NCBI GenBank assembly: GCA_964016885.1
Contig: OZ024745.1
Span: forward strand, 32,054,001-32,118,000
DNA: 64,000 nucleotides
DNA from: Eledone cirrhosa
Lineage: Eukaryota
Direction: 5' to 3'
Shown: one piece after another, positions 7,666 to 48,421 of the stretch
Layout of the letters: each line of letters starts with the position of its first letter
Numbering within the stretch: position 1 is the first letter of the stretch
Position numbers and translations under genes: made by a program
The notes under the pieces: generated by a model
The model's input: the letters and a program-made list of their open reading frames with translations, nothing else
The model's database searches: none
Told to the model about the DNA's origin: nothing

Positions 7666-10291
7666 TAATAGACTCAAGTCAAATGTGAAATATTAGTCCC
7701 ATTTCAACCGGTAATAGACTCAAGCCAAATGTGAAATATTAGTCCCATTTCAACCGGTAATAGACTCAAGTCAAATGTGAAATATTAGTCCCGTTTCAAC
7801 CGGTAATAGACTCAAGCCAAATGTGAAATATTAGTCCCATTTCAACCGGTAATAGACTCAAGCCAAATGTGAAATATTAGTCCAACCGGTAATAGACTCA
7901 AGCCAAATGTGAAATATTAGTCCCATTTCAACCGGTAATAGACTCAAGCCAAATGTGAAATATTAGTCCCATTTCAACCGGTAATAGACTCAAGCCAAAT
8001 GTGAAATATTAGTCCCATTTCAACCGGTAATAGACTCAAGCCAAATGTGAAATATTAGTCCCATTTCAACCGGTAATAGACTCAAGCCAAATGTGAAATA
8101 TTAGTCCCATTTCAACCGGTAATAGACTCAAGCCAAATGTGAAATATTAGTCCCATTTCAACCGGTAATAGACTCAAGCCAAATGTGAAATATTAGTCCC
8201 ATTTCAACCGGTAATAGACTCAAGCCAAATGTGAAATATTAGTCCCATTTCAACTGGTAATAGACTCAAGCCAAATGTGAAATATTAGTCCCATTTCAAC
8301 TGGTAATAGACTCAAGCCAAATGTGAAATATTAGTCCCATTTCAACCGGTAATAGACTCAAGCCAAATGTGAAATATTAGTCCCATTTCAACCGGTAATA
8401 GACTCAAGCCAAATGTGAAATATTAGTCCCATTTCAACCGGTAATAGACTCAAGCCAAATGTGAAATATTAGTCCCATTTCAACCGGTAATAGACTCAAG
8501 CCTAATGTGAAATATTACTCCCATTTCAACCGGTAATAGACTCAAGCCAAATGTGAAATATTAGTCCCATTTCAACCGGTAATAGACTCAAGCCAAATGT
8601 GAAATATTAGTCCCATTTCAACCGGTAATAGACTCAAGCCAAATGTGAAATATTAGTCCCATTTCAACCGGTAATAGACTCAAGCCAAATGTGAAATATT
8701 AGTCCCATTTCAACCGGTAATAGACTCAAGCCAGATGTGAAATATTAGTCCCATTTCAACCGGTAATAGACTCAAGCCAAATGTGAAATATTAGTCCCAT
8801 TTCAACCGGTAATAGACTCAAGCCAAATGTGAAATATTAGTCCCATTTCAACCGGTAATAGACTCAAGCCAAATGTGAAATATTAGTCCCATTTCAACCG
8901 GTAATAGACTCAAGCCAAATGTGAAATATTAGTCCCATTTCAACCGGTAATAGACTCAAGCCAGATGTGAAATATTAGTCCCATTTCAACTGGTAACAGA
9001 CTCAAGCCAAATGTGAAATATTAGTCCCATTTCAACTGGTAACAGACTCAAGCCAAATGTGAAATATTAGTCCCATTTCAACTGGTAACAGACTCAAGCC
9101 AAATGTGAAATATTAGTCCCATTTCAACCGGTAATAGACTCAAGCCAAATGTGAAATATTAGTCCCATTTCAACCGGTAATAGACTCAAGCCAAATGTGA
9201 AATATTAGTCCCATTTCAACCGGTAACAGACTCAAGCCAAATGTGAAATATTACTCCCATTTCAACTGGTAATAGACTCAAGCCAAATGTGAAATATTAG
9301 TCCCATTTCAATCGGTAATAGACTCAAGCAAAATGTGAAATATTAGTCCCATTTCAACCGGTAATAGACTCAAGCCAAATGTGAAATATTACTCCCATTT
9401 CAACTGGTAATAGACTCAAGCCAAATGTGAAATATTACTCCCATTTCAACTGGTAATAGACTCAAGCCAAATGTGAAATATTAGTCCCATTTCAATCGGT
9501 AATAGACTCAAGCCAAATGTGAAATATTAGTCCCATTTCAACCGGTAATAGACTCAAGCCAAATGTGAAATATTAGTCCCATTTCAATCGGTAATAGACT
9601 CAAGCCAAATGTGAAATATTAGTCCCATTTCAACCGGTAACAGACTCAAGCCAAATGTGAAATATTAGTCCCATTTCAACTGGTAACAGACTCAAGCCAA
9701 ATGTGAAATATTAGTCCCATTTCAACTGGTAACAGACTCAAGCCAAATGTGAAATATTAGTCCCATTTCAACCGGTAATAGACTCAAGCCAAATGTGAAA
9801 TATTAGTCCCATTTCAACCGGTAATAGACTCAAGCCAAATGTGAAATATTAGTCCCATTTCAACTGGTAACAGACTCAAGCCAAATGTGAAATATTAGTC
9901 CCATTTCAACTGGTAATAGGCTCAAGCCAAATGTGAAATATTAGTCCCATTTCAACCGGTAATAGACTCAAGCCAAATGTGAAATATTAGTCCCATTTCA
10001 ACTGGTAACAGACTCAAGCCAAATGTGAAATATTAGTCCCATTTCAACTGGTAACAGACTCAAGCCAAATGTGAAATATTACTCCCATTTCAACTGGTAA
10101 CAGACTCAAGCCAAATGTGAAATATTACTCCCATTTCAACTGGTAACAGACTCAAGCCAAATGTGAAATATTACTCCCATTTCAACTGGTAACAGACTCA
10201 AGCCAAATGTGAAATATTAGTCCCATTTCAACCGGTAATAGACTCAAGCCAAATGTGAAATATTACTCCCATTTCAACCGGTAATAGACTC
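7666..10291. repeat. 46-bp minisatellite, about 57 copies
   Basis: Head-to-tail unit GTAATAGACTCAAGCCAAATGTGAAATATTAGTCCCATTTCAACCG with point variants and no unique spacers. Confidence 0.97.
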
Positions 10292-11079
10292 CCACTGAGA
10301 CCCAAGAATATGTGAGCATAGCAAAAGCCTTGTTCCAGGCGTGTGAACAGTAATCGAGATGTATGATTAGTAGATGAGGTGTAGGAAGAGTAATTATAAC
10401 ATTGATCAGTGATCAAGGCTTTGAGCAGTTAGCAGAAGTAGAGAATATTTAAGCTTTGCATCATTATTTTCTGTCATCCTTACGGGGTCGATAAAATAAA
10501 GTACCAGTAATGTACTGGGTAATTGCTGGCCTTGTGCCAAAAAGTAGAAACAATTATTTTCTGTCATTGAGAATGAAGCCTATATTTTGTAGCACAGTTT
10601 TGATTATATAGAGAACACGTAAGGTTGTTGTGAAACACTATTAGAGATTGTAGGAAAGGAATGTGGTGAAATTTAGTTCCTAAAGTGGGATGATGCAGTT
10701 ATGTGGTTTAAATTCTAGAAATAATTTTAGTTTTGATTATTACCGGATGTTTTTTCATAGATAGATGTTGAGGTTGTGTTTAAAGGAAACATGTTCATGG
10801 AATGGAGAAAAAACTAGTTCAATCGTACAGTCATATAAAAAATAAGATTGTGGGAAATCGATAAACTGAGCTATGGAGTAGAAGAAACAAAACAAATTAG
10901 ATACTATGTTGCTAGATACACCTACAAAGACGTCATGTTCATAGCTAGTATAACTTTTGATCATAGATCTGCTCAGATTACAGTTCTGTTTAATTTCTTC
11001 TTTTCTTTCTTTTTATAACTGAAAAGATGTCAACTATATTTTACAACAGAAGTTATACAATGATGGAAATGTGAATATA

Positions 11080-14571: not shown

Positions 14572-14992
14572 GAGCGGAGCAAGCAATTGTCAAACAATCT
14601 TTTAAATAAATTAAAAAACGATTTAAATATTTACCTGTTCTATTGCTGTTACCGACGGTTTCACTAATCAAAAGATTGGAAATCCAGAGAATTTCCAATG
14701 GAAAGAATTAGATCTTCAGACAGCTATTTCCATACTATAAGGGTGCAAAACCTCATAGTAAGTCAATATTTCGCTTATTGCCCGACGCATGCGGTCAAGC
14801 CGTTGAAGTGACGCACACGCAAAATTAGGCCACAAGTAAAAACGGGTTATTATAAACTTGCTGATCATGCCGCTAAAAATAGCAGTGCGATACGTTTTGT
14901 TCTCTACATAAGGAGAAAAATTATAAAAGGGTATGGATATTCCAACATGCACTAGGTACCTACAGAAATATGCCTGTTGGAATATCCATACC

Positions 14993-15872: not shown

Positions 15873-15985
15873 AGTATTCTGAGGATTTGATCAGAGGTAA
15901 ACACTGTATTTGAGGTCGAGTGATGCAACTTCGAGTGATTAGCGGCCTTTAGACTCACCTGATCAATGAAACAATTGTTAATACT
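15873..15985 (+). ncRNA. Type I hammerhead ribozyme with large stem II loop
   Basis: AGTATT CTGAGGA T TTGATCAG...CTGATCAA T GAA ACAATTGT T AATACT. Stem I 6 bp, stem II 8 bp, palindromic stem III, GUU triplet. Confidence 0.72.
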
Positions 15986-25715: not shown

Positions 25716-26066
25716 CATCCACTAAACAACCACTTTTGCCCTAGCAATGACTGGTTTCATCGCTTTGCTCACATCATGGACAGATATGGCTGGCAGCACG
25801 TGTACCTGTATACTTTCTTCTAAGAAGAAAAAAAGGGCTGTGGATTTGGCAGGGTTGTTAGAGTGTTGGAAAAATACATAACAATAATTGTTCCAGCACT
25901 TTATGTTCTGAATTCAAATCCCACTGAGGTCAACTTTGCTATTTGGGGTTAAGAAAAGAAAATATCAGTCAAATACTAGTGTTGATTTCATCGGCTTTTG
26001 CCTTTCCCTCAAAATTACTGACCTTGTAATAAGAAGAAAAAGAAAAAGAAAAAGTAGAAATCTTAC

Positions 26067-27386
26067 TCGGTAAAGTTTTTCAGAATAATGTTCTGACATC
26101 TGATGAAAAAGTTTCCTCTTTGTCTTTAATCTGTGTCCAGTGTCTGATCCAGTGGCATTGTCTAACGCAATTCGATATGAAGATTTGTCTCTTTGCTCAC
26201 TATCAGAACTATTGGTATAAGTGGAAACAGAATAGACTGAGGCAGAATTCAAATCTATCTGCTTGGGGTCAATCTGAATATCCTGAATGTCATCATCTTG
26301 GTCAGATATAATCTCTTCTGTATTGAAATTAGTTCTGTTCAATCCATTGTTACTTTGCTGGCTGTGTCGTCTCTTTCGAACAGAAACTACAGAACCATCA
26401 GGAAGTGTTATCTTAGAATCTCCAGCTTCGTCTAAATATAGTGAATTATTAGTATAAACACCTGAACTGATATTAGGTGTTATTTGGATGATACCAAGAT
26501 CAGAATTAGCACCAGTGACAGTTTCACGATTATTAATACTTGTAACAGAGTAAATTGTATTTGCAGTCACTTCTGGTGTCAGATGTGCTCCAGTGTTGTG
26601 TTGATTTGCATTAGATCGTCCTGTAACTTTTAAATTTGAAAGAAGATTTGTATTTACTTTGTTTATTATTGTTGGCGATTGAGTGTTTCTGGACGGTGAA
26701 TTATTCAGTTGGTCTTCTACATCCTCAAGGATATCAGACTGGGAATATACTGAGGAAACTTGCAGATAACTCGTGTTATTACTGGTTACCTCATTGACAC
26801 TGGTATTAGAGATCAATTGGTTGCTATTGCTACTTAATCCATGGTTAATCTGAGTAACTCCTGTGATAAAGCTACTGTCTCCAGTTGAGAGAGAAAGTTC
26901 ATTAGCCTCTTCTACTGAACTGTGCAAAGAGGGATTTCTGTCTACCAAATATAAACCGTTCCCAGTTTTTCCGTCAGATACAGCAATACCCACACTTTTG
27001 CTGATGTTCAATATAGCTTCAGCCAGCAGAGGGGTATATTCACCTGAGCCGATTTCTAAAGCCAATGCCCCACTTAATCCTAACGAAGAACCAGGTGCAC
27101 TATCAGCGCCTTGGAGTCGGCGCCGCCGTTGCATTTCAGCTTTTTTGGTTTCGCTCAACAAACATACCCATTTCCGTCTGACATCGTTCACAGTTCGATG
27201 TTCACCCATGACGGATTCAACAGAATTAACTTTATGAGCAATGCATTCCCAAGCATGTTGCTTCGCTTGATTAGATACAGGTGTGTTGCGTTTGGTGAAC
27301 AAAATATCTTTTCTGGCTTGTACATTAGCAACTAAGACTTCAAGTTCTTGCTTTGTAAAATTTGCTTTTCTTTTCCGGGATAACAT
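26067..27386 (-). CDS. First coding exon of Myb/SANT-like (MSANTD4/NAIF1-type) DNA-binding protein, 440 codons
   Basis: N-terminal RKRKANFTKQELEVLV...KQHAWECIAHKVNS...RTVNDVRRKW is a Myb/SANT-like (Harbinger-type) domain. Donor CGA|gtaaga at 26066. The acceptor at 27418-27419 implies an upstream 5'UTR exon. Confidence 0.9.
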
Positions 27387-30300
27387 TTTTATTAATTTTC
27401 ATAAATTTATGTACTTTCTGAAGTATAAAAGAAAAAAAATCATAAAATAATCATTATAAACAATTTTTAAAATGACGAGCATTCTTTAACTAAATATATT
27501 TCCTATTGAGGCACCAATCCACACAATTCGGAAAAAGAATTTCATTTCCCGAAGAAATTAGTGGCTTAAGTGCTTCAACTAGGAATCGAAAGACTATTTG
27601 TCTGAGTGTTAAAACTAAACCTATGATTTTGTTATGATCTGTTTAAGTATATAATAAAGTGATATCATGAAAGAGGGAGGGGAAGAGCAGTTTACTGACA
27701 TAATTTTAAAGTAATAAATAACATTAAAACAAAAATGGACTTTAAAATATTGAAATGGCAATCTAAATGGTTGTTATTGATATTAAAACCCCACTATTAT
27801 CGTATCTAAGTATTTTAGTAATATAATAACGTTATCATACTCTCAAAACGAGTAATCAATCGCAACTAAGAAAGTGTGCAGAATTGTGCAGCTATAAAAA
27901 TGATAAATCGTAATCACAACAGAATATGGTATTATCAAAGTCGAAAGTCTTTACAAACCACCTAGCTCTGTCTTATTGTTTGTGATACCAATAACTAAAC
28001 TGCCTTAACTAACTTATTCTCTCTCTCTCACAGACTATCTTAGTATTCATTTATCGATAGTATTACTGTGTTGTGAGCTTTTATTGTATTTCTGTCTCAC
28101 AGAAATGATAGTTATAAGAATTATAGTGAGAAAATTATTGTTTAAAACCACGAGTAAATTTAATCCATCAAAATTTTGTTGGAATCGAAATTTATATTGT
28201 CAGTTTGCATTAGAGATGTATAATATTTTTGACGATTGATTGGAAATGAAAAAGGGTTTGTTTTTATCATATATGTAAACAAGTTCACAAATATGTAAAC
28301 ATGTGGTCAGCTAAAATACAAAACGTAAAAAAATAAATATCTTTCTTTACTGTTTTATTGACTTTTTTTTCTTATTTTTGCCGTTTCTTATCGTCTTTAA
28401 AATCATTTGTAAATTATTTTAAAATCAAGATGTTTCTATTTAACGCTGTGTGTAGTTCTCTATCTCAGATTCCTCAGAGGGCAGCGTAGTAATCTTAATA
28501 CGGAGACATAAGTACTAACAAATAAAACTGTGTCAGTCTTAAATCGTTTTTCTACATTTAAAAAAATAAATCTCTTACAGAAAGAAAAATAGATATAAAG
28601 GAGAAATTTCTTTCTTTCTTTTTTTTTTGCTATTCTCAAATTAAACTATATATACAGATATTGGGGAAATATCTTCATGGGCGGAGCATTTACAAATCTT
28701 AAACATGCTTATTACGAACGATATAAAAATGCTAATTTCATAAGACTTTACGTATACAAACAAAATATATTTATATATAAACTAGCAGTGTAATAATTTT
28801 ACTCCCTTCAGCCAAAATGCCATCATTATAATTATTTTCCCTGGGAAAACTACTAGTAAAGACTTATATTGGTACTAGTAGTGATGTCACTGTAGTATCT
28901 GACTGGTCTGAAATGAGAGTTGCTGTAGATGACAAAACATGGATGACTCACTTCGCTGATTTCAATTCAGGACAGGTCATAAGTTTGCTTCTCTTTCTAA
29001 TGACTATTTCTTCTCCTTTTTTTCCCTGTACAATTCCCATCTTTTGAATAAGCGATTTTCTTTCTTACTTTTTTATGATTTTCAATTTTCATCGGCCATT
29101 TTCTTTTCCAATAAATTTCCGTCACACTACATGTGAGCTTTCTCTCTTCTGCCTCAGTTGTATACTTTCTCGTATCATATTTCTTTTTCTCCCATTTCGT
29201 TTTCTTTCTTGATCAAAATCATTCACGTATTCGTTCTTTTCTTCCATCTCTCTCTCTTATTTCCAATTCTGCTTTTCTTTTAATACCGTCCCTCTCAATC
29301 TGCTCTTATGATAATTCCTAATACTTAAATAAGTACCGCCATTATGTGAGACAGGGGAGGAAGAAGTAAACTACGACCTCGATAAACTACATTCTCTTTT
29401 TCTTTCACTTTATGCTATCTCTGTTATAATACACTCCCTATCATTTCTATCACTCTGTTTTTCTATCTCACTCTACTTGCTCTTCGTTCACTTTTTATCA
29501 TATCCTTCTCACTGTATTAGCGTTTTTCTATGTCTTATCTCTACTCCCACTCTCTTTATCACTCGTCTACGTTCCCCTTCCTTTTACCAATGACTGTAGC
29601 AACCAGCATAGTTACGTTGCTATTATGTCTACTGCTCTTTCCTCTGTCATAATGCAATTAATTGTAAAGTAGTAGTTGAACTGTTAGTAATCAGCTAGTC
29701 TGTCAGTACTGGTAGCGATCGTTGTTGCTCCGAACAAACAAGCAAGCAGGTCCTAAGCAGTGTGACCTGCTTATTATAGGAGTGAAAGGAGATAAGAGAA
29801 GTGTTAACCAAACAACGTTATAAAGGTGTCACAGAAAGCTTAATATTAAGTAGTCCTTTAATAGTGAGAGACAAATCAAACAAATAGGATTACACACAAA
29901 ATATAAATTGATGAATGAAATTGACTGCCTTTGAAATTCTTAGGTTTGTATGTATACATTGACAGTTACGACACGTTCTTCGCCTCCAAGCCTAGTCTCT
30001 TCGCCCACAAACCCAAACATACAATCTCCATTTCCTTAACTTTCCCTTTCTTTTTCATTCTTTTTTTTTTATTGCAAATATTATAGAAATGCTATGGACA
30101 AAGGTTTCCTTTTGCTGATAGTTTATCGAACCTTGTTTCAATCAAGAAAAAGTTTGGGTTAGAGATATTGAGAGCGTCCTGTTAATAATAGATAACTATC
30201 TTTCAGAAAATAAACAAATAATGATTTGTATACCAGACCATGCAGCAAACCTGTCAGCTCTCCCCGTCCGACGGGGAGATCTCCCACCCACTTTGGGTTT

Positions 30301-30988: not shown

Positions 30989-31590
30989 CGGTGGATTGAT
31001 AGTATCGGTAGAGCGTCGGACAACATGCTTCGCGACATAGTTACGGTTCTTTACGTTCTGAGTTCAAATCCCGTCGAGGTCGGCTTTACTTTTCATCCTT
31101 ACTGGGTCAATAAATAAAGTATTACACTGTGGTCGATTTAATCGACTTCCCCCTCCCCAAAAAACTGTTGGCCTTGTGCTTAAATCAGAAACCATTATCC
31201 TGCCGAGGTTAACTTTGCCTTTCATCTTTACGGGGTCGATAAAATAAAGTACCAGTAATGCACTGGGTAATTGCTGGCCTTGTGCCAAAAAGTAGAAACA
31301 ATTATTTAATGAAGAACAAATAATTGTTTCTACTTTCGGCACAAGGCCAGCAATTATCCAGTGCATTACTGGTACTTTATTTTATCGACCCCGTAAGGAT
31401 GAAAGGCAAAGTTAACCTCGGCGGGATTTGAACTCAGAATGGCAAGGGCCGTAACTCTATGCGTCAAAGCATGGCGTCCGACCCTCTACCGATACTGCCA
31501 GTCCACCAAATAATTGTTTCTACTTTTTGGCACAATGCCAGCAATTATCCAGTGTATTACTGGTACTTTATTTTAGCCAGTCCACCAAAT
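30989..31590. mobile_element. SINE cluster: plus copy with duplicated 3' half, minus copy (31321-31508) and a fragment
   Basis: Same SINE family as 13683-13868, arranged tail-to-tail. Confidence 0.8.
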
Positions 31591-35030: not shown

Positions 35031-35432
35031 TGTAGCAGTGAATAAAATGTATTTTCCTTCTGCGGCGGAATGGTGTTACGGAGGTAAGTTGGCTGAAGTG
35101 TGAGCCAATCGAAACCTTCGGTGCACTAATTCGACTGTCCAGAACTACGTCACCAGGTGAGCGGAGGTGACCAAGAGAAACATTAGTCTACACGCACCTC
35201 TCTTATCGACAAGACCAGGCTACACTCATCGCTGCTAACAACATCTCCATCTTGCAATGAAGCGGACCAAACTACATCCTACACATGTAGATACGACCTG
35301 TACCTAATGTATCCGTTCAACATGTACGACTAATAAATAGAGTTACAACATCGATAATGGATTTAGTCAATGTTCTAAATGCCTTCTGATTTCTATTATG
35401 TATACCAAGAATTGACCCTAAAACCCGTTATA
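35031..35432 (+). repeat. 5' LTR
   Basis: TGTAGC...GTTATA, near-identical to 40412-40813. Contains AATAAA. Confidence 0.95.
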
Positions 35433-35434
35433 AA

Positions 35435-35452
35435 TGGTGACCCCGACGTGAT
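35435..35452 (+). other. Primer-binding site complementary to tRNA-Trp 3' end
   Basis: TGGTGACCCCGACGTGAT is the reverse complement of ATCACGTCGGGGTCACCA, the metazoan tRNA-Trp 3' end as I recall it. Confidence 0.85.
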
Positions 35453-36098
35453 ACGATACAACAAATCACGTTATAAATGGTGACCCGAACGTTTAAGGAC
35501 ATCAACACAGAAGAAACCACATCTTTCCGTTGCAACGAACACATCAACATTTCGCATCCCCCCCCCCCCCAAAAAAAAACAAAGCCACTCGCCTTTTCTC
35601 GGGGTATGTACGCGATTAGCGTGAGTCCTAATATGTATTTGATATATTGTCTTATTGTTACTAAATCTGCACATCACACCTTCACTTTCTAACATCACCG
35701 AACACATGCGTTAATACAAAAATCTAAATACTCTAAATTTCTGATTGGGCGACGCTATAAAAAAACTAAAAAAAAAAAAAAAAACTGTTGGCGCCGATGG
35801 CCGGTCAGAGCAAGATGGCCGACTTCCGTCTTCTTCAGCTGTTTTCCCGCCAAAATGACGGAGGCAACGCCATTTTGAAAAGTACACAAAAAAAAAAAAA
35901 AAATAATAGGACAAAGATAAATCATAATTTTTTTTTTAAAGCTTGACGTTTTTCCCTCCAACATTGTTTTTGATATATTTTTCTTTTTCTGTCCTTCACT
36001 CGGATTATATTTTTTCTTGGCCTGAATTTTCACTTTTGTCTCGGTGACAAGTGCAGAGTTGTCCTTTCTTTGCCCTTTTTTTTACATCAGTATACACA

Positions 36099-37058
36099 AT
36101 GGGTAGCACTTCATTGCCACCGTTTACCGGTGACGTCACTGTCTGGTTCGCCCAGATAGAAGCACATTTCACAGCGAATAACATCACCGGTGACCACAGA
36201 CAGTTAAATCTCCTGTTAAGCGCTTTTCCAGCGTCATTGACGTCGGTCGTCAAAGACTTAATTACAGATCCTCGCCCTGGGGCCTCCTATGAGAGCGTGA
36301 AGCTCGAAGTGTTGCGGCGGACCACATTGTCCGCAGAAAAAAAATTTCAGACGCTCGTCAATGACGAACATTTGGGTGATCGGACGCCCACACAACTACT
36401 GCGTCGGATGAGAGAGCTGGCGGAAGATGCCCCAGCTGACAGTGCCCTCCTTAGACAGCTTTTTGTCTCAAGGCTACCCCCCGGAGTTCAGGCGATCTTA
36501 GCGCCCATGATGGAGGCTGCTCCTGTCGACCAGCTAGCGGCTTCGGCCGACAGGGTTATGAGTGTCATCGGACACCCAGCCTCATTTGCCCCCTTCCAGG
36601 CACCTCAGCCACCGGCTGCGGTCAATCCGTTCTCTCCTGCCTCCTTCCAGGCACCTCAGCCACCGGCTGCGGTCAATCCGTTCTCTCCTGCCTCCTTCCA
36701 GGCACCTCAGCCACCGGCTGCGGTCAATCCGTTCACTCCTGTCTCCTTCAATGTATCCCAGCCGCCGACTGCGGTCGCTTCCTTCACTCCAGCGGCTGCC
36801 AGTTATACCGACCAGTCACTTGCAAATGCAGCAATGCTGCAAGCAATAGAGCAGCTAACCAAGGAAGTGAGAAAACTAAGCACTCACAGGGCTCATTCGC
36901 CCAGACGCCGTTTCCAGAGCCGTTCACCCTCGCCACGACGCCGTCACACAAGCAGTTCAGGTTTGTGTTACTACCACAGCCGTTTTGGCGCAGCAGCACG
37001 CTCCTGTAAACAGCCTTGTACATTTTCGGACCAGGGAAACAGATTTCAGGAGACCTGA
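36099..37058 (+). CDS. gag: Gypsy Gag
   Basis: ATG at 36099, [23 protein letters not shown] and a C-terminal CYYHSRFG..C...C knuckle. Carries a 17-aa (51-bp) Pro/Ala tandem repeat. Confidence 0.92.
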
Positions 37059-37075
37059 GCACGGCACAGTCTCCT
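37034..37075 (+). promoter_or_regulatory. -1 programmed ribosomal frameshift signal
   Basis: Slippery heptamer G GGA AAC (37034-37040) in the gag frame, with pol in the -1 frame. A GGAGAC...GTCTCC stem starts 8 nt downstream. Confidence 0.85.
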
Positions 37076-40000
37076 CTGACCCTCCCTAATAACCGTGTGT
37101 TTTTCATCACAGACACTGAGTCGCAAGCACGTTGTCTGATCGACATCGGCGCGGCTTGTAGCATTTGGCCGCTAAAACTTCTCAAAGAGAAGCCCCAACT
37201 CTCAACCGTCTCTCTGCAAGCAGTAAACCAGTCACCGATCCCCACGTACGGTCAGATTTCTCGTTCTTTGAACCTGGAATTGCGTAGAGATTTCACGTGG
37301 ATCTTCACTGTTGCTGATCTGCCTTACCCCATCCTAGGTTCAGATTTCCTGCACCACTATAACTTGATAGTGGATATGCGCAGACGCCGGTTGTTGGATG
37401 CCAACACAGAACTGTCTGTGCCGGGTACCAGATCGACTGTCTTGTCGGTCAGCCCGGTCTTCTTTATCGCTGCTACAGAAGATCCTTACCAATCACTTTT
37501 GCATTCCTTCCCGGAATTAACAAATTTGAATTTTGTGATGAGTGAGCCTACTCACTCCACCAAGCACCACATTGAAACATCCGGAGCTCCTGTGTTTTCG
37601 CGCCCTCGCCGTCTCTCTGCTGAGAAACTGAAGGCCGCAAAGGCTGAATTCAATCACATGCTGCAGCTCGGGATCATTCGCCCATCCTCAAGCCCGTGGG
37701 CCGCACCCTTGCATTTGGTACCAAAGCGTTCCGGTGATTGGCGTCCCACTGGGGACTTTCGCCGATTAAATGCAATGACGGTACCCGACCGCTACCCGAT
37801 ACCACACATACAGGATTTTGCATCTTCGCTGCATGGATGCAACATATTCTCCAAATTGGATTTGGTCAAAGCATACCACCAAATCCCGGTGAACCCGGCA
37901 GACATACCTAAAACTGCAGTAACAACTCCATTTGGAGCGTTTGAATTTTTGACCATGCCTTTCGGTTTGCGAAACGCAGCCAGCACGTTCCAACGATTTA
38001 TGGATGAAGTTGTGCGCGATTTAGACTTCGTGTACAACTACATCGACGACATTCTTGTGGCAAGTGCCTCACCTGAGGAACATGTCAATCACCTCCGTCT
38101 CCTGTTCGAGAGATTTCAAAAATACCAAGTGAGAATTAATCCGGCAAAATGTGTTTTCGGTGCTTCCTCACTTGTCTTCTTGGGCCATGTCATCAGCCCA
38201 GAAGGAATTTCGCCACTACCTGATAAAGTGAAAGCGGTACAAGACCTCCAACCACCCACTTCACTTCGTCAACTACGACATTTCCTTGGGCTACTGAACT
38301 ATTACAGGCGCTTTATCCCACACTGTGCGGATCTCCTGTCTCCTCTGTCTGACCTGTTACGTAACAGGAAAAAGAAGAACGATTCCATTTCATTGGACAC
38401 AAATCAGCTAAAAGCCTTCGACAAAGTGAAGCGGAAGCTTACGGAGATATCACTGCTTGCACATCCTGTGTCTGGTGCCCAGTTTTCACTGGTTGTTGAT
38501 GCATCAGGCACAGCTGTAGGTGCAGTACTGCAACAACATCACCAACAACAGTTACAACCTCTTGCCTACTTTTCTAAACAGCTGAAGCCTGCAGAAACAC
38601 GGTATAGCACATTCGGCCGTGAACTCTTGGCTATGTACCTTGCAGTGAAACACTTTCGGCATTCACTGGAGGGTCGCCAATTTGTTATATACACTGACCA
38701 CCGTCCGCTTACGTTCGCACTGCGTTCTAAGCCGGACAAATATTCACCTCGCGAAACTCGCCACTTGGACTTCGTTTCGCAATTTACCAGCGATATCCGA
38801 CACATCTCTGGTGAGCAGAATGCGGCGGCAGATGCACTGTCTCGCCTCCCAATTAATTCCCTGTCATCGCCAGCGGAAATCGACCTCCAACGAATGGCCA
38901 CGGAACAACCACCTCTGGATACTTTGGACCTCTCGTCTTCTGAATTTGCAACTGGCAAATTTGCATATCTGCCTGTGCCCACTTCGGACACACAGATTAT
39001 CTGCGACACCTCGACAGATGCACCTCGCCCTCTAGTGCCAGTGACTCATCGTCGAGCAGTTTTCGACACCTTGCACGGTCTGGCACACCCTGGAATATCG
39101 ACCACAGTGAAGCTCATTTCGGATAGATTCTTCTGGCCTAATATGAGGCGTGACATCACTGCCTGGACACGTTCATGCCTATCCTGCCAAAAGTCAAAGG
39201 TGCACAAACACATCCGCGCACCCCTTGGAACTTTCAGCACTCCAGACGCTCGGTTCAGCCATGTCCATATAGATCTTGTCGGACCATGGCCGGTCAGCCG
39301 AGGATTTACATACCTCCTGACCTGCATAGATCGCTTCACACGTTGGCCTGAAGCCATTCCTTTAAGTGACATTTCGGCGGAATCTGTGGCGCGAGCTCTA
39401 GTATCGGGTTGGATATCGCGTTACGGAGTTCCAGCCACTATCACCACTGACCGCGGTGGACAATTTGAGTCACACCTTTTCCGAGAGCTTTCAAGGATCC
39501 TGGGAATGCAACGCATTCGAACGACCAGCTACCATCCAGCTTCTAACGGAATGATTGAACGCTTCCACCGCCAATTGAAAGCCGCACTGCGCGCTTATCC
39601 GGATCAGCAGCGGTGGAGCGAATATGTACCAATTGTCCTCCTGGGCTGTCGTGCAGCCATCAAGGAAGATCTAGGCTACTCCCCCGCCGAGTTGGTTTAC
39701 GGAGTGCCTATATCTCTGCCTGGTCAGATGTTAGCTCCATTGGACCTACCAGCAACAGACCCAGCTCTGTATGTGAGCAGACTGCAATCATATTTCAGCA
39801 ATCTTCCGCCTATGCACCCTCGCCAACAGACAATCAAATCTTCGGTCCCGAAAGACATTGTTTCATGGACCCACGTCTTTTTACGAAAGGACGCCGTGAG
39901 AGCTCCTCTCATGCCACCTTATACCGGTCCCTATCGCGTGCTTGAGCGCACAGATAAGCTATTCACCCTAGACATTGGGGGTAAAAAAGAGACTGTGTCC

Positions 40001-40189
40001 ATTGACAGGGTAAAACGGGCCTATACAGACACTCTCACACAAGAGCCCCATTTTCCCCCCACATACACCTGGCATCAGCCAAGCCACAATACACATATAA
40101 CATCGCACACACCTACATATGTCACCACCACACGTAGCGGTCGGCGGGTACATTGGCCCAAGAAGCTTTGCAAGACTCTTTATATATGA
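37034..40189 (+). CDS. pol: Gypsy Pol (protease, RT, RNase H, integrase), expressed by frameshift
   Basis: Uninterrupted ORF with LIDIGA, YIDD, VDAS...DALSR, HHCC zinc finger, D-D-E core and GPY motif. Confidence 0.96.
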
Positions 40190-40411
40190 ACTATGTTATT
40201 TACAGCAATCTTCTTGGAGTTTGCTCCGCCCTTGTATTTGTATTAAATGTATGAACTAAGGTGAACATTACACTATTTCTGACTTTCCTGTAATATGAAC
40301 ATTTCTTTATCAGTGATATATTTTATTGTGTTTACTATTATATAGTACTTTTTCTTTCATTCAACTGCTACCCTTATTTCTCTGTCGGCTGTAAGCCTAA
40401 GCAGGGGGTGA

Positions 40412-40813
40412 TGTAGCAGTGAATAAAATGTATTTTCCTTCTGCGGCGGAATGGTGTTACGGAGGTAAGTTGGCTGAAGTGTGAGCCAATCGAAACCTTC
40501 GGTGCACTAATTCGACTGTCCAGAACTACGTCACCAGGTGAGCGGAGGTGACCAAGAGAGACATTAGTCTACACGCACCTCTCTTATCGACAAGACCAGG
40601 CTACACTCATCGCTGCTAACAACATCTCCATCTTGCAATGAAGCGGACCAAACTACATCCTACACATGTAGATACGACCTGTACCTAATGTATCCGTTCA
40701 ACATGTACGACTAATAAATAGAGTTACAACATCGATAATGGATTTAGTCAATGTTCTAAATGCCTTCTGATTTCTATTATGTATACCAAGAATTGACCCT
40801 AAAACGCGTTATA
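40412..40813 (+). repeat. 3' LTR
   Basis: Direct repeat of the 5' LTR, preceded by the purine tract AGCAGGGGGTGA. Confidence 0.95.
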
Positions 40814-43541: not shown

Positions 43542-43720
43542 TTGTCTGTTGCAATGTAAACACATTTCGTGTTTATCATATACTTTAAATGTATTTAACT
43601 GCTCGGAAGAGCCCCTTCCTGGAGCTTAATTATTGTAAACGACTGAGAGTTTATTCTCAAAATATAATATAATATATATATACATATATTTATATACATA
43701 TATATATATATATATACATA

Positions 43721-43757
<37 letters not shown>

Positions 43758-43809
43758 GTATATATATATATATACATATATATACATATATATATATAGC
43801 TATATATAT

Positions 43810-43922
<113 letters not shown>

Positions 43923-44053
43923 CATATGTAGGAGGTGAGTTTTATTGTAGTACAATAAAGCAATGCAGATATCGGATAAGAAGCACTCTACAGTTTGTGG
44001 GACTGGAGTATGCATAATATAAGATCAAAAGATGGTTAAAGGAGTTCCATATA

Positions 44054-44120
44054 TTTTATTATGCGCATTTCAAAAACAAACATCATCAAGCAATAATATT
44101 TGTGTTTTCATCAGATAAAA
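44054..44120 (-). ncRNA. Type I hammerhead ribozyme in PLE 3' region (pseudo-LTR)
   Basis: Minus strand: TTTTAT CTGATGA AAACACAAATATTAT(loop)ATGATGTTTGTTTTT GAA ATGCGCAT A ATAAAA. Stem I 6 bp, long stem II, palindromic stem III, AUA triplet. Same strand as the PLE ORF. Confidence 0.85.
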
Positions 44121-45099
44121 CAGGAGAACATGATATGAAGGCTAAAAAAACACTTATTGATAGTGCAGTTTTAAATTAACATATGAAAAGTGGTTTTAGA
44201 TTGATGTGTGATATTGGGAAAAATATTTTATTTAGAGAGGAGGGGGAAAGGATGAAAAGGGAAGGAGATGAGAGGGAGAGATGGGTGATAGAGAGAAAGA
44301 GATAGTTTTTATAACTGAGAGGAGATATATTTTTTACATAGAGGGGTTGAAAACCGTTGGAAGATACTGTATAAATTAAAATTTTGAAAATTAACGAAGG
44401 GAGGATATGTGCGAGGAAAAAATATTTTATTTAGGGAGGGGCGGGTGGAAAGGATGAAAAAAAGGGGGGAGGAGATGAGAGTGAAGGTGGAGAGGGAGAG
44501 ATGGGTGATAGAGAGAAAGAGATAGTTTTTATAACTGAGAAAAAGATATATTGTTTTAATATAGAGAGGTTGGGAACTGTTGGAAGATAATGTATAAATT
44601 AAAGGAATTTGAAAATTAACGAAGGGAAATTATGTATGAAGATAGAGAGAAAAAAATAATAATTGTGGGTGAATATTCTAACGTCAAAAGAAAAAATGTA
44701 TGTATTGTGGCAATTTCAAAATTAGCGAAGAGAAAAATTAAGGTTTGTGTGTAGAAGGATTTGAGAAAAATAATGTGAAGTTAAAGTTTGTATATTGAAT
44801 TGATATGTATTAATAATGAGTTCGTTGATGGGGAGAAAAAAAAAATAATAATAAATTAAGGATGAAATTGAGATTAAAAAGATTTATGATAGAGAGAAAA
44901 AATAATAATGATTGCGGATGAATATTCAAAATGTCAAAAACAAATGTTATTATTTTACGAGAAGATAGAATGAGGGTAATGAGTAAACGAGTATTATAGA
45001 GTGTATAATGCCCTTTAAAGTAAGGTAGATGGGTATATTTTAAAGAGGTGTATGTATATGTCTTTGAGAAAAGATTCTAAATTGATAAAGAATTGAATA

Positions 45100-46296
45100 T
45101 TAACTGTATACTTTGTGAAAAGTTCTATGGAATTTATGCAGGCAGATAGAAAACAAATCTGAGCGTCTATTTATTATAGATTCTAGGTTAGAGATAATGG
45201 TAAATTTTTCATTTAGGCAGAGATTACAGATTTTAGATAGAGAGCTGTTCAAGTATGAGGATGCAGAAGAAATCTTTTTCCAAAAGATGTTATATTTAAT
45301 GTTTTTGTCTTTTAAGGACCATATGAGTTCTGAGAGAGCAGTGTTAGTTCTTTTAAGTTTGTATTTGAAAGATGAATGATGATTATAGAGACGAGCTTTA
45401 AAAGAGGTGGAAGTGGAGCCAAAATAGGTGAAGGAATTGGTGCTAGTTATAATTTTACATTCATAAATTAAGTTTTTATCGAGGCAATGGTTGTTGAGAG
45501 GACATTTATTTTTAATGCGGCAGTTGCAATTAGAGAGATTATTAATGAGTGATCTAGTGTTATCTATAGAAGGAATTGGATTGGAGAAGTTGTTTGCGAT
45601 AGGAATAATAGGAATAATAGTTTCTTGATTTAGAGTTGGATTATGAACATTTAGCGAAGTTGTGTTTGACGTTGTATTTGGGTTTACAGAAGTTAGCCTA
45701 GGGTTTACAATGACGTCGGGAGTACTATTACTGTTATTATGAAATTCAATATTGGAAGGAAGAGATTTAGTATTTAATATTTTGTTGTTGTGTTTAGAGA
45801 TGATGTTGGAAATATTGGAGGATGTAGAATACGAAAATTTGATGGTGTGTTTGTTAAATATTTTACTATAGATATGTGAGGGAGGGAAGCATTTATTTAA
45901 GGCACTAAAAAATAATTTAGGAATATTGTTATTAATAGAGATGGAGAAAGGAGCATTATACCAGATTATGTTTTTGTATCTAGGTCTTTTATTAAAATTA
46001 TTGGAATGGTCATGATTAATTATTCTACTGTAAGTTTTCCTAGAATTTGTTTCTTTATTATATTTGATTTTATCTGGATAGCCGGCTTTAGAAAGTGCGT
46101 TATTATAGTAATTGGCGTTAGCATCAAAGATGTTTTTATTAGAAGATATGTTAGATATTCTATTTCCAATATTATTAACTATAGCATTCTTGATATTGGT
46201 AGGATGGTTAGATTTAAAGTTAACATAATTAAGATTCTCATTGTTTTTATGGTAAGGGTAATATAGGCCAGTGTCAAGATTAAGAGATACATCCAA
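45100..46296 (-). CDS. PLE ORF C-terminal part: RT thumb, CxCx5C linker, GIY-YIG endonuclease (5'-truncated, no true start)
   Basis: FLDV, YVNFKSNHP, CNCRIKNKCPL, LIYECKI...YFGSTSTSFKARLYNH, CNLCLNEK. Confidence 0.88.
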   Translation of the reverse strand: MDVSLNLDTGLYYPYHKNNENLNYVNFKSNHPTNIKNAIVNNIGNRISNISSNKNIFDANANYYNNALSKAGYPDKIKYNKETNSRKTYSRIINHDHSNNFNKRPRYKNIIWYNAPFSISINNNIPKLFFSALNKCFPPSHIYSKIFNKHTIKFSYSTSSNISNIISKHNNKILNTKSLPSNIEFHNNSNSTPDVIVNPRLTSVNPNTTSNTTSLNVHNPTLNQETIIPIIPIANNFSNPIPSIDNTRSLINNLSNCNCRIKNKCPLNNHCLDKNLIYECKIITSTNSFTYFGSTSTSFKARLYNHHSSFKYKLKRTNTALSELIWSLKDKNIKYNIFWKKISSASSYLNSSLSKICNLCLNEKFTIISNLESIINRRSDLFSICLHKFHRTFHKVYS

Positions 46297-46328
46297 GAAA
46301 TTAGCTAGTTTGATACTATTATCAAATT

Positions 46329-46360
<32 letters not shown>

Positions 46361-46364
<4 letters not shown>

Positions 46365-48221
46365 ATTTGATAATAGTATCAAACTAGCTAATTTCTTGGA
46401 TGTATCTCTTAATCTTGACACTGGCCTATATTACCCTTACCATAAAAACAATGAGAATCTTAATTATGTTAACTTTAAATCTAACCATCCTACCAATATC
46501 AAGAATGCTATAGTTAATAATATTGGAAATAGAATATCTAACGTATCTTCTAATAAAAACATCTTTGATGCTAACGCCAATTACTATAATAACGCACTTT
46601 CTAAAGCCGGCTATCCAGATAAAATCAAATATAATAAAGAAACAAATTCTAGGAAAACTTACAGTAGAATAATTAATCATGACCATTCTAATAATTTTAA
46701 TAAAAGACCTAGATACAAAAACATAATCTGGTATAATGCTCCTTTCTCCATCTCTATTAATAACAATATTCCTAAATTATTTTTTAGTGCCTTAAATAAA
46801 TGCTTCCCTCCCTCACATATCTATAGTAAAATATTTAACAAACACACCATCAAATTTTCGTATTCTACATCCTCCAATATTTCCAACATCATCTCTAAAC
46901 ACAACAACAAAATATTAAATACTAAATCTCTTCCTTCCAATATTGAATTTCATAATAACAGTAATAGTACTCCCGACGTCATTGTAAACCCTAGGCTAAC
47001 TTCTGTAAACCCAAATACAACGTCAAACACAACTTCGCTAAATGTTCATAATCCAACTCTAAATCAAGAAACTATTATTCCTATTATTCCTATCGCAAAC
47101 AACTTCTCCAATCCAATTCCTTCTATAGATAACACTAGATCACTCATTAATAATCTCTCTAATTGCAACTGCCGCATTAAAAATAAATGTCCTCTCAACA
47201 ACCATTGCCTCGATAAAAACTTAATTTATGAATGTAAAATTATAACTAGCACCAATTCCTTCACCTATTTTGGCTCCACTTCCACCTCTTTTAAAGCTCG
47301 TCTCTATAATCATCATTCATCTTTCAAATACAAACTTAAAAGAACTAACACTGCTCTCTCAGAACTCATATGGTCCTTAAAAGACAAAAACATTAAATAT
47401 AACATCTTTTGGAAAAAGATTTCTTCTGCATCCTCATACTTGAACAGCTCTCTATCTAAAATCTGTAATCTCTGCCTAAATGAAAAATTTACCATTATCT
47501 CTAACCTAGAATCTATAATAAATAGACGCTCAGATTTGTTTTCTATCTGCCTGCATAAATTCCATAGAACTTTTCACAAAGTATACAGTTAATATTCAAT
47601 TCTTTATCAATTTAGAATCTTTTCTCAAAGACATATACATACACCTCTTTAAAATATACCCATCTACCTTACTTTAAAGGGCATTATACACTCTATAATA
47701 CTCGTTTACTCATTACCCTCATTCTATCTTCTCGTAAAATAATAACATTTGTTTTTGACATTTTGAATATTCATCCGCAATCATTATTATTTTTTCTCTC
47801 TATCATAAATCTTTTTAATCTCAATTTCATCCTTAATTTATTATTTTTTTTTTTTCTCCCCATCAACGAACTCATTATTAATACATATCAATTCAATATA
47901 CAAACTTTAACTTCACATTATTTTTCTCAAATCCTTCTACACACAAACCTTAATTTTTCTCTTCGCTAATTTTGAAATTGCCACAATACATACATTTCTT
48001 CTTTTGACGTTAGAATATTCACCCACAATTATTATTTTTTTCTCTCTATCTTCATACATAATTTCCCTTCGTTAATTTTCAAATTCCTTTAATTTATACA
48101 TTATCTTCCAACGGTTCCCAACCTCTCTATATTAAAACAATATATCTTTTTCTCAGTTATAAAAACTATCTCTTTCTCTCTATCACCCATCTCTCCCTCT
48201 CCACCTTCACTCTCATCTCCT
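46361..48221 (+). mobile_element. Inverted copy of the same PLE (right arm), running into the gap
   Basis: Mirror of 44471-46331 with a few substitutions. Confidence 0.85.
46396..47592 (+). CDS. PLE ORF C-terminal part (mirror copy)
   Basis: 398-aa translation identical to 45100-46296 except one I/V change. Confidence 0.85.
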   Translation: MDVSLNLDTGLYYPYHKNNENLNYVNFKSNHPTNIKNAIVNNIGNRISNVSSNKNIFDANANYYNNALSKAGYPDKIKYNKETNSRKTYSRIINHDHSNNFNKRPRYKNIIWYNAPFSISINNNIPKLFFSALNKCFPPSHIYSKIFNKHTIKFSYSTSSNISNIISKHNNKILNTKSLPSNIEFHNNSNSTPDVIVNPRLTSVNPNTTSNTTSLNVHNPTLNQETIIPIIPIANNFSNPIPSIDNTRSLINNLSNCNCRIKNKCPLNNHCLDKNLIYECKIITSTNSFTYFGSTSTSFKARLYNHHSSFKYKLKRTNTALSELIWSLKDKNIKYNIFWKKISSASSYLNSSLSKICNLCLNEKFTIISNLESIINRRSDLFSICLHKFHRTFHKVYS

Positions 48222-48421
48222 NNNNNNNNNNNNNNNNNNNNNNNNNNNNNNNNNNNNNNNNNNNNNNNNNNNNNNNNNNNNNNNNNNNNNNNNNNNNNNN
48301 NNNNNNNNNNNNNNNNNNNNNNNNNNNNNNNNNNNNNNNNNNNNNNNNNNNNNNNNNNNNNNNNNNNNNNNNNNNNNNNNNNNNNNNNNNNNNNNNNNNN
48401 NNNNNNNNNNNNNNNNNNNNN
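48222..48421. other. Assembly gap (200 N)
   Basis: Run of N. Confidence 1.

What the first reader, a model, noticed from the sequence alone, without database searches (positions are those of the whole stretch)
44054..44120. Canonical-core hammerhead at the 3' end of the Naiad-like PLE
Seen: CUGAUGA/GAAA core, stem I UUUUAU/AUAAAA, stem II of about 15 bp with G-U pairs, a perfectly palindromic stem III AUGCGCAU and an AUA site at 44062-44060. It lies about 1 kb downstream of the GIY-YIG stop on the same strand and about 125 nt from the (TA)n junction. This ties a ribozyme directly to a young PLE and supports a PLE origin for the other two hammerheads. Three distinct hammerheads in 64 kb implies a large ribozyme load in this genome (inference).
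Basis: partly seen in the sequence, partly recalled or inferred. Interest (0 to 1): 0.72.

Follow-up and report, generated by a model that had tools for sequence, protein, structure and literature searches.

The report
Hammerhead of Hydra-clade Penelope retrotransposon
This is a hammerhead-type RNA motif, predicted to cut itself only when two copies pair, at the end of a young jumping gene of a known family (Hydra-clade Penelope) whose relatives have left over 20,000 such motifs in this genome; the copies show no pile-up at the cut site, so they were likely copied from uncut RNA.

Summary
The hammerhead is real: type I, minus strand, predicted cut between 44060 and 44059. It has compensatory changes in 13 of 20 pairs across 21 relatives, and two copies fold into a double hammerhead. 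The element is not a Naiad. Full-length copies encode RT followed by a C-terminal GIY-YIG with DKT, CxCX5C and no CCHH, which is the Hydra clade. Canonical hammerheads are published for that clade, including an Octopus family. The pattern has 22,798 genomic matches. Of 99 sampled arms, 27 begin at -122 to -126, often after an untemplated G, likely a capped start, and none begins at the cut. Junction density is flat across the cut. The hammerhead therefore likely sits in the 5' leader, and uncut RNA is likely the template. Cleavage is untested. This scan has reported Hydra hammerheads, uneven ends and twin hairpins on other DNA of this genome before. Verdict: new member of a known kind.

The parts
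44052..44122 (-). Type I hammerhead: 8-bp stem I, CUGAUGA/GAAA core, 36-nt stem II arm with a Y.Y mismatch at position 4, palindromic stem III AUGCGCAU; predicted cut between 44060 and 44059
43926..44015 (-). 'Tail' between the two family-wide ends (short end +45 at 44015, long end +134 at 43926). In full-length copies this sequence runs on into the 5' UTR and ORF
43983..44013 (-). Predicted bulged hairpin starting just past the short end; a weaker one lies just past the long end in full-length copies (not in this window copy)
   Evidence: lead from earlier scan notes
44179..44186 (-). TCATATGT site at about -124 from the cut. It is the family's main fixed 5' end and a likely capped transcription start; this particular copy runs through it
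44187..45099 (-). 3' UTR, about 0.9 kb, with a ~165-bp internal duplication (44241-44402 / 44463-44627)
45100..46331 (-). 5'-truncated ORF: end of RT, thumb, N/S/T/P-rich insert, CxCX5C linker, GIY-YIG endonuclease (45133-45528)
46330..46360 (.). A31 run at the fold-back junction; both arms start within about 6 nt of the same element position (~1384 of 3667)
46361..48221 (+). Mirror arm, 99.7% identical to 44470-46331 (5 differences); cut off by the assembly gap
48222..48421 (.). 200-N gap; predicted to hide the rest of the mirror arm with a second hammerhead and the short (+45) end
   Evidence: inference from the 105-of-111 rule
43662..43927 (.). (TA)n target microsatellite at the outer end of the insertion

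Best explanation
The motif is the type I hammerhead in the terminal repeat of a young Hydra-clade Penelope-like retrotransposon, predicted to cut as a double hammerhead, and the element is likely copied from RNA in which the hammerhead being read is still uncut. Shown: the fold is conserved with compensatory changes; the element is a 3.67-kb unit with an 800-aa RT/GIY-YIG ORF; insertions lie in (TA)n and are mostly head-to-head pairs with one end at +45 and one at +134; many arms start at -124; junctions do not pile up at the cut. Inferred: transcription starts with a cap at -124, so the full RNA carries one hammerhead in its 5' leader and one near its 3' end. The endonuclease opens (TA)n on both strands, and each DNA end primes reverse transcription, one at +45 and one at +134. 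cDNAs that run off at the cap and anneal give ~430-bp two-hammerhead hairpins. Longer arms come from priming at the 3' repeat or from a jump to it. Cleavage, licensed when two copies pair through the 8-nt palindrome, likely trims the RNA or removes the capped leader, rather than producing the template's 5' end. The window copy is one 5'-truncated two-armed insertion and cannot encode a full RT.
For: Fold: 13 of 20 pairs have compensatory changes among 21 sequences, slid controls pair at 31-57% against 89%, and stem II position 4 is unpaired in 21 of 21. The unconstrained cofold of two copies is the swapped double hammerhead with 8-bp intermolecular stem III, -43.9 against 2 x -15.9 kcal/mol; closing stem III in the monomer costs 3-4 kcal/mol. 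Clade: RLRWT at 35, DKT at 123, YRDD at 357, CxCX5C at 659, no CX2-5CxxC, CxxC at 759, CxH at 787, matching PMC8557442 section 11. Ends: 105 of 111 two-armed insertions are short plus tail. 5' ends: 27 of 99 arms start at -122 to -126, 48 run beyond -290, none starts between -15 and +13. Under stricter de-duplication there are 24 such arms, 7 with a partner ending elsewhere, so palindrome annealing alone does not explain the site. The base before -124 is G in 14 of 22 arms where the template has C (p = 0.003 against 1/3); untemplated 5' G was attributed to cap copying for L1/SVA (PMC3287187). Across the cut: 1,254 hits x 24/30 true junctions for -5 to +13, with 1 of 24 at +1, against 1,382 x 23/30 for -24 to -6. 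In vitro, a Poseidon PLE starts RT at two internal sites and uses mainly uncut RNA (PMC11167929).
Against: No cleavage assay, and no RNA data. Pair 10.1-11.1 is A-U in the young family instead of the usual G-C, and PLE hammerheads tested so far cut weakly or need protein. The -124 site lies in the palindrome CATATG, which favours junctions by itself: 17 of 24 arms there have a symmetric partner, and the bases before them are not independent, which weakens the G statistic. Arms that start exactly at +1 exist (102 pattern hits; by my reading about 18 of 30 inspected are true junctions), so some cut RNA may be copied. The two density windows used different subfamily filters, so the comparison is rough. 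A test of whether tailed ends derive from the 5' repeat was null (7/6/5 sites). Six of 111 two-armed insertions break the rule. Arms of more than two units (L061/L062) need a circle, a jump or read-through, and I could not tell which.
Confidence: 0.72

Rival explanations
1. Cut-and-circle: the two hammerheads cut out a unit-length RNA, a host ligase closes it, and the RT copies the circle, reading through the re-formed hammerhead. This would explain tandems and the lack of ends at +1.
For: Proposed for PLEs in PMC4209133 and shown for retrozyme RNAs in PMC7229834 (passages). Arms of more than two units exist, and repeated segments within one insertion are often identical (6 of 14 loci).
Against: A circle has no 5' end at -124, yet 27 of 99 arms stop there. 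In L035 and L036 the copies within one insertion differ at shared or polymorphic sites, as from a template with two different repeats; L033 points the other way.
Confidence: 0.15
2. The main job of the hammerhead is translational: cutting the 5' leader removes the cap and six of nine upstream AUGs and lets the ORF be translated, or marks the RNA for decay, so cut RNA is message and uncut RNA is template.
For: The hammerhead lies between the inferred start (-124) and the ORF AUG (+213), with nine upstream AUGs, six of them before the cut. Self-cleavage promotes cap-independent translation in viral 5' UTRs (PMC13725137, abstract). This is compatible with the best explanation.
Against: No expression data. 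A leader intron, as in Drosophila Penelope, could remove the upstream AUGs instead.
Confidence: 0.15
3. The fold is kept as a protein-binding or packaging structure, or is a passenger, and hardly cuts in vivo.
For: Hammerhead mutants did not affect insertion by a Poseidon PLE in vitro, and no RNA ends were found at its cut site. Naiads thrive without canonical hammerheads. There is no junction peak at +1 here.
Against: All catalytic core positions except N7 are invariant across the 21 aligned relatives while the stems turn over, although core motifs were part of my search pattern, so this is partly built in. The palindrome is kept through compensatory change.
Confidence: 0.1
4. The element is a Naiad that carries a canonical hammerhead.
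For: (TA)n targeting, fold-back structure and a one-sided tail are shared with Naiads.
Against: The endonuclease is C-terminal, the motif is DKT rather than DKA, and there is no CX2-5CxxC and no CCHH.
Confidence: 0.01

Closest known systems
Hydra clade of C-terminal EN+ Penelope-like elements, including Hydra-1_Obim of Octopus bimaculoides (Craig et al. 2021, PMC8557442; passages, section 11, supplement part 2 of 59)
   Same: Domain order, RW(K/T), DKT, CxCX5C, CxxC and CxH motifs, no CCHH, (TA)n targets, canonical type I hammerhead near the 3' end, inverted 5'-truncated partner, one-sided tail.
   Different: Unit of 3.67 kb and 800 aa against under 3 kb for most listed families; ~70-aa N/S/T/P-rich insert; 0.9-kb 3' UTR; tail of about 89 nt against 30-40. 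The stem II arm is 36 nt with a fixed Y.Y mismatch, against 3-7 bp in the 26 Hydra rows of File S2. The 15.2-16.2 pair is U-A with an AUA triplet, against C-G with GUH in 26 of 26. The hammerhead sequence differs from that listed for Hydra-1_Obim, so this is another family.
PLE hammerheads acting as dimers (Cervera and de la Pena 2014, PMC4209133; parts 1-2 of 4)
   Same: Type I motif in the pLTR, palindromic helix III, enlarged helix II, thousands of solo copies, pairs on opposite strands 100-700 bp apart (Schistosoma).
   Different: Here helix III is an 8-nt palindrome with no loop, helix I is 8 bp, and G10.1-C11.1 is replaced by A-U in the youngest subfamily.
Poseidon element PAc of Anolis (Frangieh et al. 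2024, PMC11167929; parts 1-2 of 4)
   Same: Both DNA strands are cut and extended, two internal RT starts define the tail, and uncut RNA is the main substrate.
   Different: Different clade; its hammerhead overlaps the ORF start and has no comparable long leader. That evidence is biochemical, mine is genomic.
Adineta vaga Penelope elements (Arkhipova et al. 2013, PMC3846280; passages)
   Same: Head-to-head inverted pLTRs with palindromic junctions, one-sided tail, TATA/Inr-like motifs in the pLTR, Asn-rich inserts between RT and EN.
   Different: The authors explain the palindromes by self-priming on an antisense template. The fixed short-plus-tail polarity here fits two primings on the sense RNA better (inference).

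Membership tests
Type I hammerhead ribozyme | Core C3 U4 G5 A6 N7 G8 A9 / G12 A13 A14 / A15.1-U16.1 / H17 | tested here: met
Type I hammerhead ribozyme | Three helices, helix I open, supported by covariation | tested here: met
   13 of 20 pairs compensatory; helix III stable only between two copies
Type I hammerhead ribozyme | Match to an Rfam hammerhead model | tested here: not met
   no hammerhead family at E <= 10 in 43950-44250; the long stem II and loopless stem III are a likely reason (inference)
Type I hammerhead ribozyme | Loop 1-loop 2 tertiary contact | tested here: inconclusive
   The distal stem I bulge and the invariant mismatch at stem II position 4 are candidates; contact not tested
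Type I hammerhead ribozyme | Site-specific self-cleavage | not testable with these tools
   needs an assay or RNA-end data
Hydra clade PLE | Single ORF, RT then C-terminal GIY-YIG | tested here: met
   the endonuclease is read from motifs, Pfam gave no hit on the truncated window ORF
Hydra clade PLE | RWK motif and DKT in place of DKG | tested here: met
   RLRWT (RWK in 5 of 6 aligned relatives) and DKT
Hydra clade PLE | CxCX5C linker, no CCHH, CxxC and CxH around the E and N residues | tested here: met
Hydra clade PLE | (TA)n targets and canonical hammerhead | tested here: met
Hydra clade PLE | Grouping with named Hydra elements in an RT tree | not tested
Naiad | N-terminal GIY-YIG endonuclease | tested here: not met
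Naiad | DKA motif, CX2-5CxxC and CCHH zinc fingers | tested here: not met
Naiad | No canonical hammerhead | tested here: not met
   canonical type I motif present
Non-LTR retrozyme | Non-coding tandem repeat of 150-450-bp hammerhead units | tested here: not met
   the unit is 3.67 kb and coding; the mini copies are inverted pairs, not tandems

The most novel reading that the evidence does not exclude
This family records a retrovirus-like step in a Penelope element. Both cut DNA strands prime inside the 5' repeat of a capped RNA, copy the intact hammerhead, and run off at the cap as 'strong-stop' cDNAs. These either anneal to each other, giving thousands of ~430-bp two-hammerhead hairpins (about a third of the young family's hammerheads), or jump to the 3' repeat and build the pseudo-LTRs and tandems. 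The dimer-gated hammerhead then acts as a switch that sorts RNA into template (uncut) and message or decay (cut). I did not find this in the papers read or in searches.
Probability: 0.25. Interest if true: 0.65.

Novelty: new member of a known kind. Interest (0 to 1): 0.33.

Why it matters
A hammerhead at the end of a Hydra-clade PLE is published, so the finding as written is ordinary. Its use is as a test system. What PLE hammerheads do is stated to be unclear (PMC8557442), and how pseudo-LTRs, inverted arms and tails form is not settled. This family is young, has intact ORFs and more than 10,000 near-identical copies. Its copies give a fixed RNA start, two fixed priming sites and no junction peak at the cut, which are exact coordinates for cleavage, CAGE and in vitro priming tests. 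The long stem II with an invariant mismatch also escapes Rfam, so standard scans undercount such ribozymes.

Tried and rejected
Rfam found no hammerhead in the window or the local 301 bp, only microsatellite-driven miRNA and weak snoRNA hits. My first descriptors missed the other two hammerheads because they required a pair at the base of stem II; a relaxed scan found them. I looked for a scrambled topology in the window and found none convincing. A pile-up of arm 5' ends at the cut site was rejected. Tracing tailed ends to the 5' repeat was inconclusive (14 loci). ADAR hyper-editing of the window fold-back was rejected: the arms differ at only 5 of 1,862 positions. Two of the three stem II U-G pairs are C-G in an older subfamily, so they are not A-to-G scars. 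An assembly artefact for the fold-back is unlikely because the same form recurs in over 100 loci, but this copy was not checked against reads. Sequencing runs: no RNA holder listed; contigs of four runs hold the family but cannot show ends or expression. The scan's earlier notes gave nothing for this place or sequence. The search 'hammerhead' plus 'octopus' returned nothing relevant beyond Craig et al.. No structure or complex prediction was run, as it would not change the verdict. bioRxiv supplements are closed, and I read only part 1 of 5 of 10.64898/2026.07.22.740005. I saw only part 2 of 59 and search hits of the Craig supplement, and did not compare its consensus sequences.

Full report
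Observation. It has CUGAUGA at 44114-44108, a 36-nt stem II arm, GAAA, the palindrome AUGCGCAU and H17 = A44060, so the predicted cut is between 44060 and 44059. Stem I is 8 bp. Stem II pairs at 15 of 16 positions, with three U-G pairs and one C.U mismatch. A strict descriptor found it once in the window and in 0 of 100 shuffled windows. Rfam does not detect it, and the monomer's folding z-score is only -1.6, so the case rests on relatives.

Structure across relatives. Loci fetched from the genome contained three subfamilies of this element and many more distant families with the same design. I aligned 21 of them, chosen by hand to span families. Of 420 cells, 89% pair, and 13 of 20 pairs change on both sides; no shuffle of 500 reaches this, and slid partners fall to 31-57%. 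Relatedness inflates the shuffle test, and the core was part of my search pattern. Position 4 of stem II is unpaired in 21 of 21. Pair 10.1-11.1 is A-U, G-U or G-C. Stem III stays self-complementary through G-C/A-U swaps. Closing stem III within one copy costs 3-4 kcal/mol. Two copies folded without constraints give the swapped double hammerhead, -43.9 against -31.8 kcal/mol. Dimer-gated cleavage is therefore predicted, as for other PLE hammerheads (PMC4209133, parts 1-2 of 4). It is not tested.

The element. The window holds a fold-back. The left arm is 43926-46331 (-), followed by an A31 run, and the right arm is 46361-48221 (+), 99.7% identical over 1,862 bp and ending in a 200-N gap. Full-length copies elsewhere have a 3,667-nt unit and an 800-aa ORF. 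The order is RT, thumb, a ~70-aa N/S/T/P-rich insert absent from six aligned homologues, linker, then endonuclease. Motifs are RLRWT, DKT, YRDD, CxCX5C, a GIY-YIG core without the two CCHH cysteines, then CxxC and CxH. These are the features given for the Hydra clade in PMC8557442 section 11. Naiads have an N-terminal endonuclease and lack canonical hammerheads (passages). The paper's supplement lists canonical hammerheads for Hydra elements, including Hydra-1_Obim from Octopus bimaculoides. Its 26 Hydra rows have stems II of 3-7 bp and GUH triplets, so this family differs in detail. No tree with named references was built. That the host is an octopus-like cephalopod comes from my recall of its SINEs and from earlier scan notes; no call names it.

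Abundance and age. The genome is 3.0 Gb. An exact 29-mer of the hammerhead has 11,783 hits, and a looser core-to-triplet pattern has 22,798; reversed controls gave 0. The 150 best-scoring endonuclease matches were all 100% identical, many of them in 821-codon open frames.

Ends. Counting from the cut, outer ends cluster near +45 and +134. In full-length copies the stretch between them continues into the 5' UTR, with the AUG at +213. Of 111 two-armed insertions in all fetched loci (not a random sample, de-duplicated by flanks), 105 have one end of each kind, 5 have two short ends and 1 has two tails. This is the published one-sided tail, about 89 nt long here. It fits two RT start sites used by the two cut strands, as shown for PAc (PMC11167929, parts 1-2 of 4). 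The window's left arm is tailed, so the gap should hide a second hammerhead and a short end (inference). Predicted hairpins lie just past both ends, as earlier scan notes report.

Inner (5') ends. I took 92 of the first 100 position-ordered hits of a post-cut 29-mer, which gave 99 arms with their partners. Of these, 27 start at -122 to -126, 48 run past -290, and none starts between -15 and +13. In the first 100 hits, 34 lie in back-to-back pairs within 300 bp. The 17 such pairs inspected come from several subfamilies and have varied junctions, most of them at this site, so they arose independently. The site TCATATGT is kept in all three subfamilies. It contains a palindrome that would favour annealing, but 7 of 24 strictly de-duplicated arms have a partner ending elsewhere. 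The base before -124 is G in 14 of 22 arms where the template has C (p = 0.003 against one third; arms within a pair are not independent). Untemplated 5' G was attributed to cap copying for L1 and SVA (PMC3287187, two passages). I read -124 as a capped transcription start; this is inferred.

Is cut RNA copied? Arms beginning exactly at +1 exist (102 pattern hits; about 18 of 30 inspected are junctions by my reading). They are not enriched. For starts at -5 to +13 there were 1,254 hits; 24 of 30 inspected were junctions, spread evenly, with one at +1. For starts at -24 to -6 there were 1,382 hits, with 23 of 30 junctions. The filters differ, so this is rough, but there is no peak and no step at the cut. 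Every arm longer than about 60 nt was copied through an intact hammerhead. This does not exclude cutting of the other copy on the same RNA, nor a re-ligated circle for the long arms. A test using variants shared between repeats within one insertion was null.

Mechanism. Most likely a capped RNA with a hammerhead in its leader and another near its 3' end is bound by the ORF protein. (TA)n is cut on both strands, and both ends prime, at +45 and +134. The cDNAs meet and anneal wherever they stop, most often at the cap. In the window copy both stopped within about 6 nt of each other and are joined by an A run, partly untemplated (inference). Cleavage likely trims or decaps the RNA. Six of nine upstream AUGs lie before the cut, and self-cleavage can promote cap-independent translation (PMC13725137, abstract), so a translational role is a live rival. 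The circle model (PMC7229834 passages) cannot produce the -124 ends but may account for multi-unit arms.

The other two hammerheads. They are at 14719-14650 (-) and 15879-15979 (+) and share no sequence with this element. The second belongs to another Hydra-type PLE: 11 of 20 loci have PLE protein hits, most with a CxCX5C endonuclease upstream on the same strand. The first lies in a ~465-bp repeat that forms tandems and mirror pairs with no consistently placed ORF, like a retrozyme (10.64898/2026.07.22.740005, part 1 of 5).

Verdict. It is a new member of a known kind, and this scan has already noted the same kind several times in this genome. The added value is the inferred capped start and the negative test at the cut site. 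Searches showed no paper reporting these for a PLE, within a library that lacks most subscription journals.

Noticed in passing
window 14650-14719 (-): Second type I hammerhead (GUA site, stem III ACCGUCGGU, 50-nt stem II arm) in a ~465-bp non-coding repeat with 1,782 first-look candidates; tandem and two-armed copies.
   Followed up: partly
window 15879-15979 (+): Third type I hammerhead with an 82-nt stem II arm and palindrome ACAAUUGU; relatives carry a Hydra-type endonuclease upstream.
   Followed up: partly
L121-L136 (G000:C1): About a third of the young family's hammerheads sit in ~430-bp two-hammerhead hairpins folded at the -124 site, each made independently.
   Followed up: yes
L373/L374, L390 and further pairs listed: Some very short two-armed copies fold exactly at the stem III palindrome, so the hammerhead palindrome itself can serve as the annealing point of the two cDNAs.
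   Followed up: no
flanks of L002-L320: 36 clusters of type I hammerhead-like motifs, many unrelated to this family, turned up in the fetched loci; several have stem II arms of 40-50 nt.
   Followed up: partly
L053, L061, L066/L067: Arms of more than two full units, with a longer 3' UTR variant (unit ~3.9 kb).
   Followed up: no
window 35031-40813: Gypsy-type LTR retrotransposon with 402-bp LTRs 99.5% identical and an unbroken 1,059-codon pol frame (RT, RNase H, integrase).
   Followed up: no
window 7666-10291: 46-bp satellite, 57 copies, 97% matches.
   Followed up: no
window 25965-27398 (-): 477-codon frame with a Myb/SANT-like DNA-binding domain; possibly a Harbinger-type transposon gene (recalled association, untested).
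   Followed up: no
window 31197-31427: 231-bp near-perfect palindrome built from a dispersed repeat also present at 10471, 13678, 17417 and 51984; no hammerhead core seen.
   Followed up: partly
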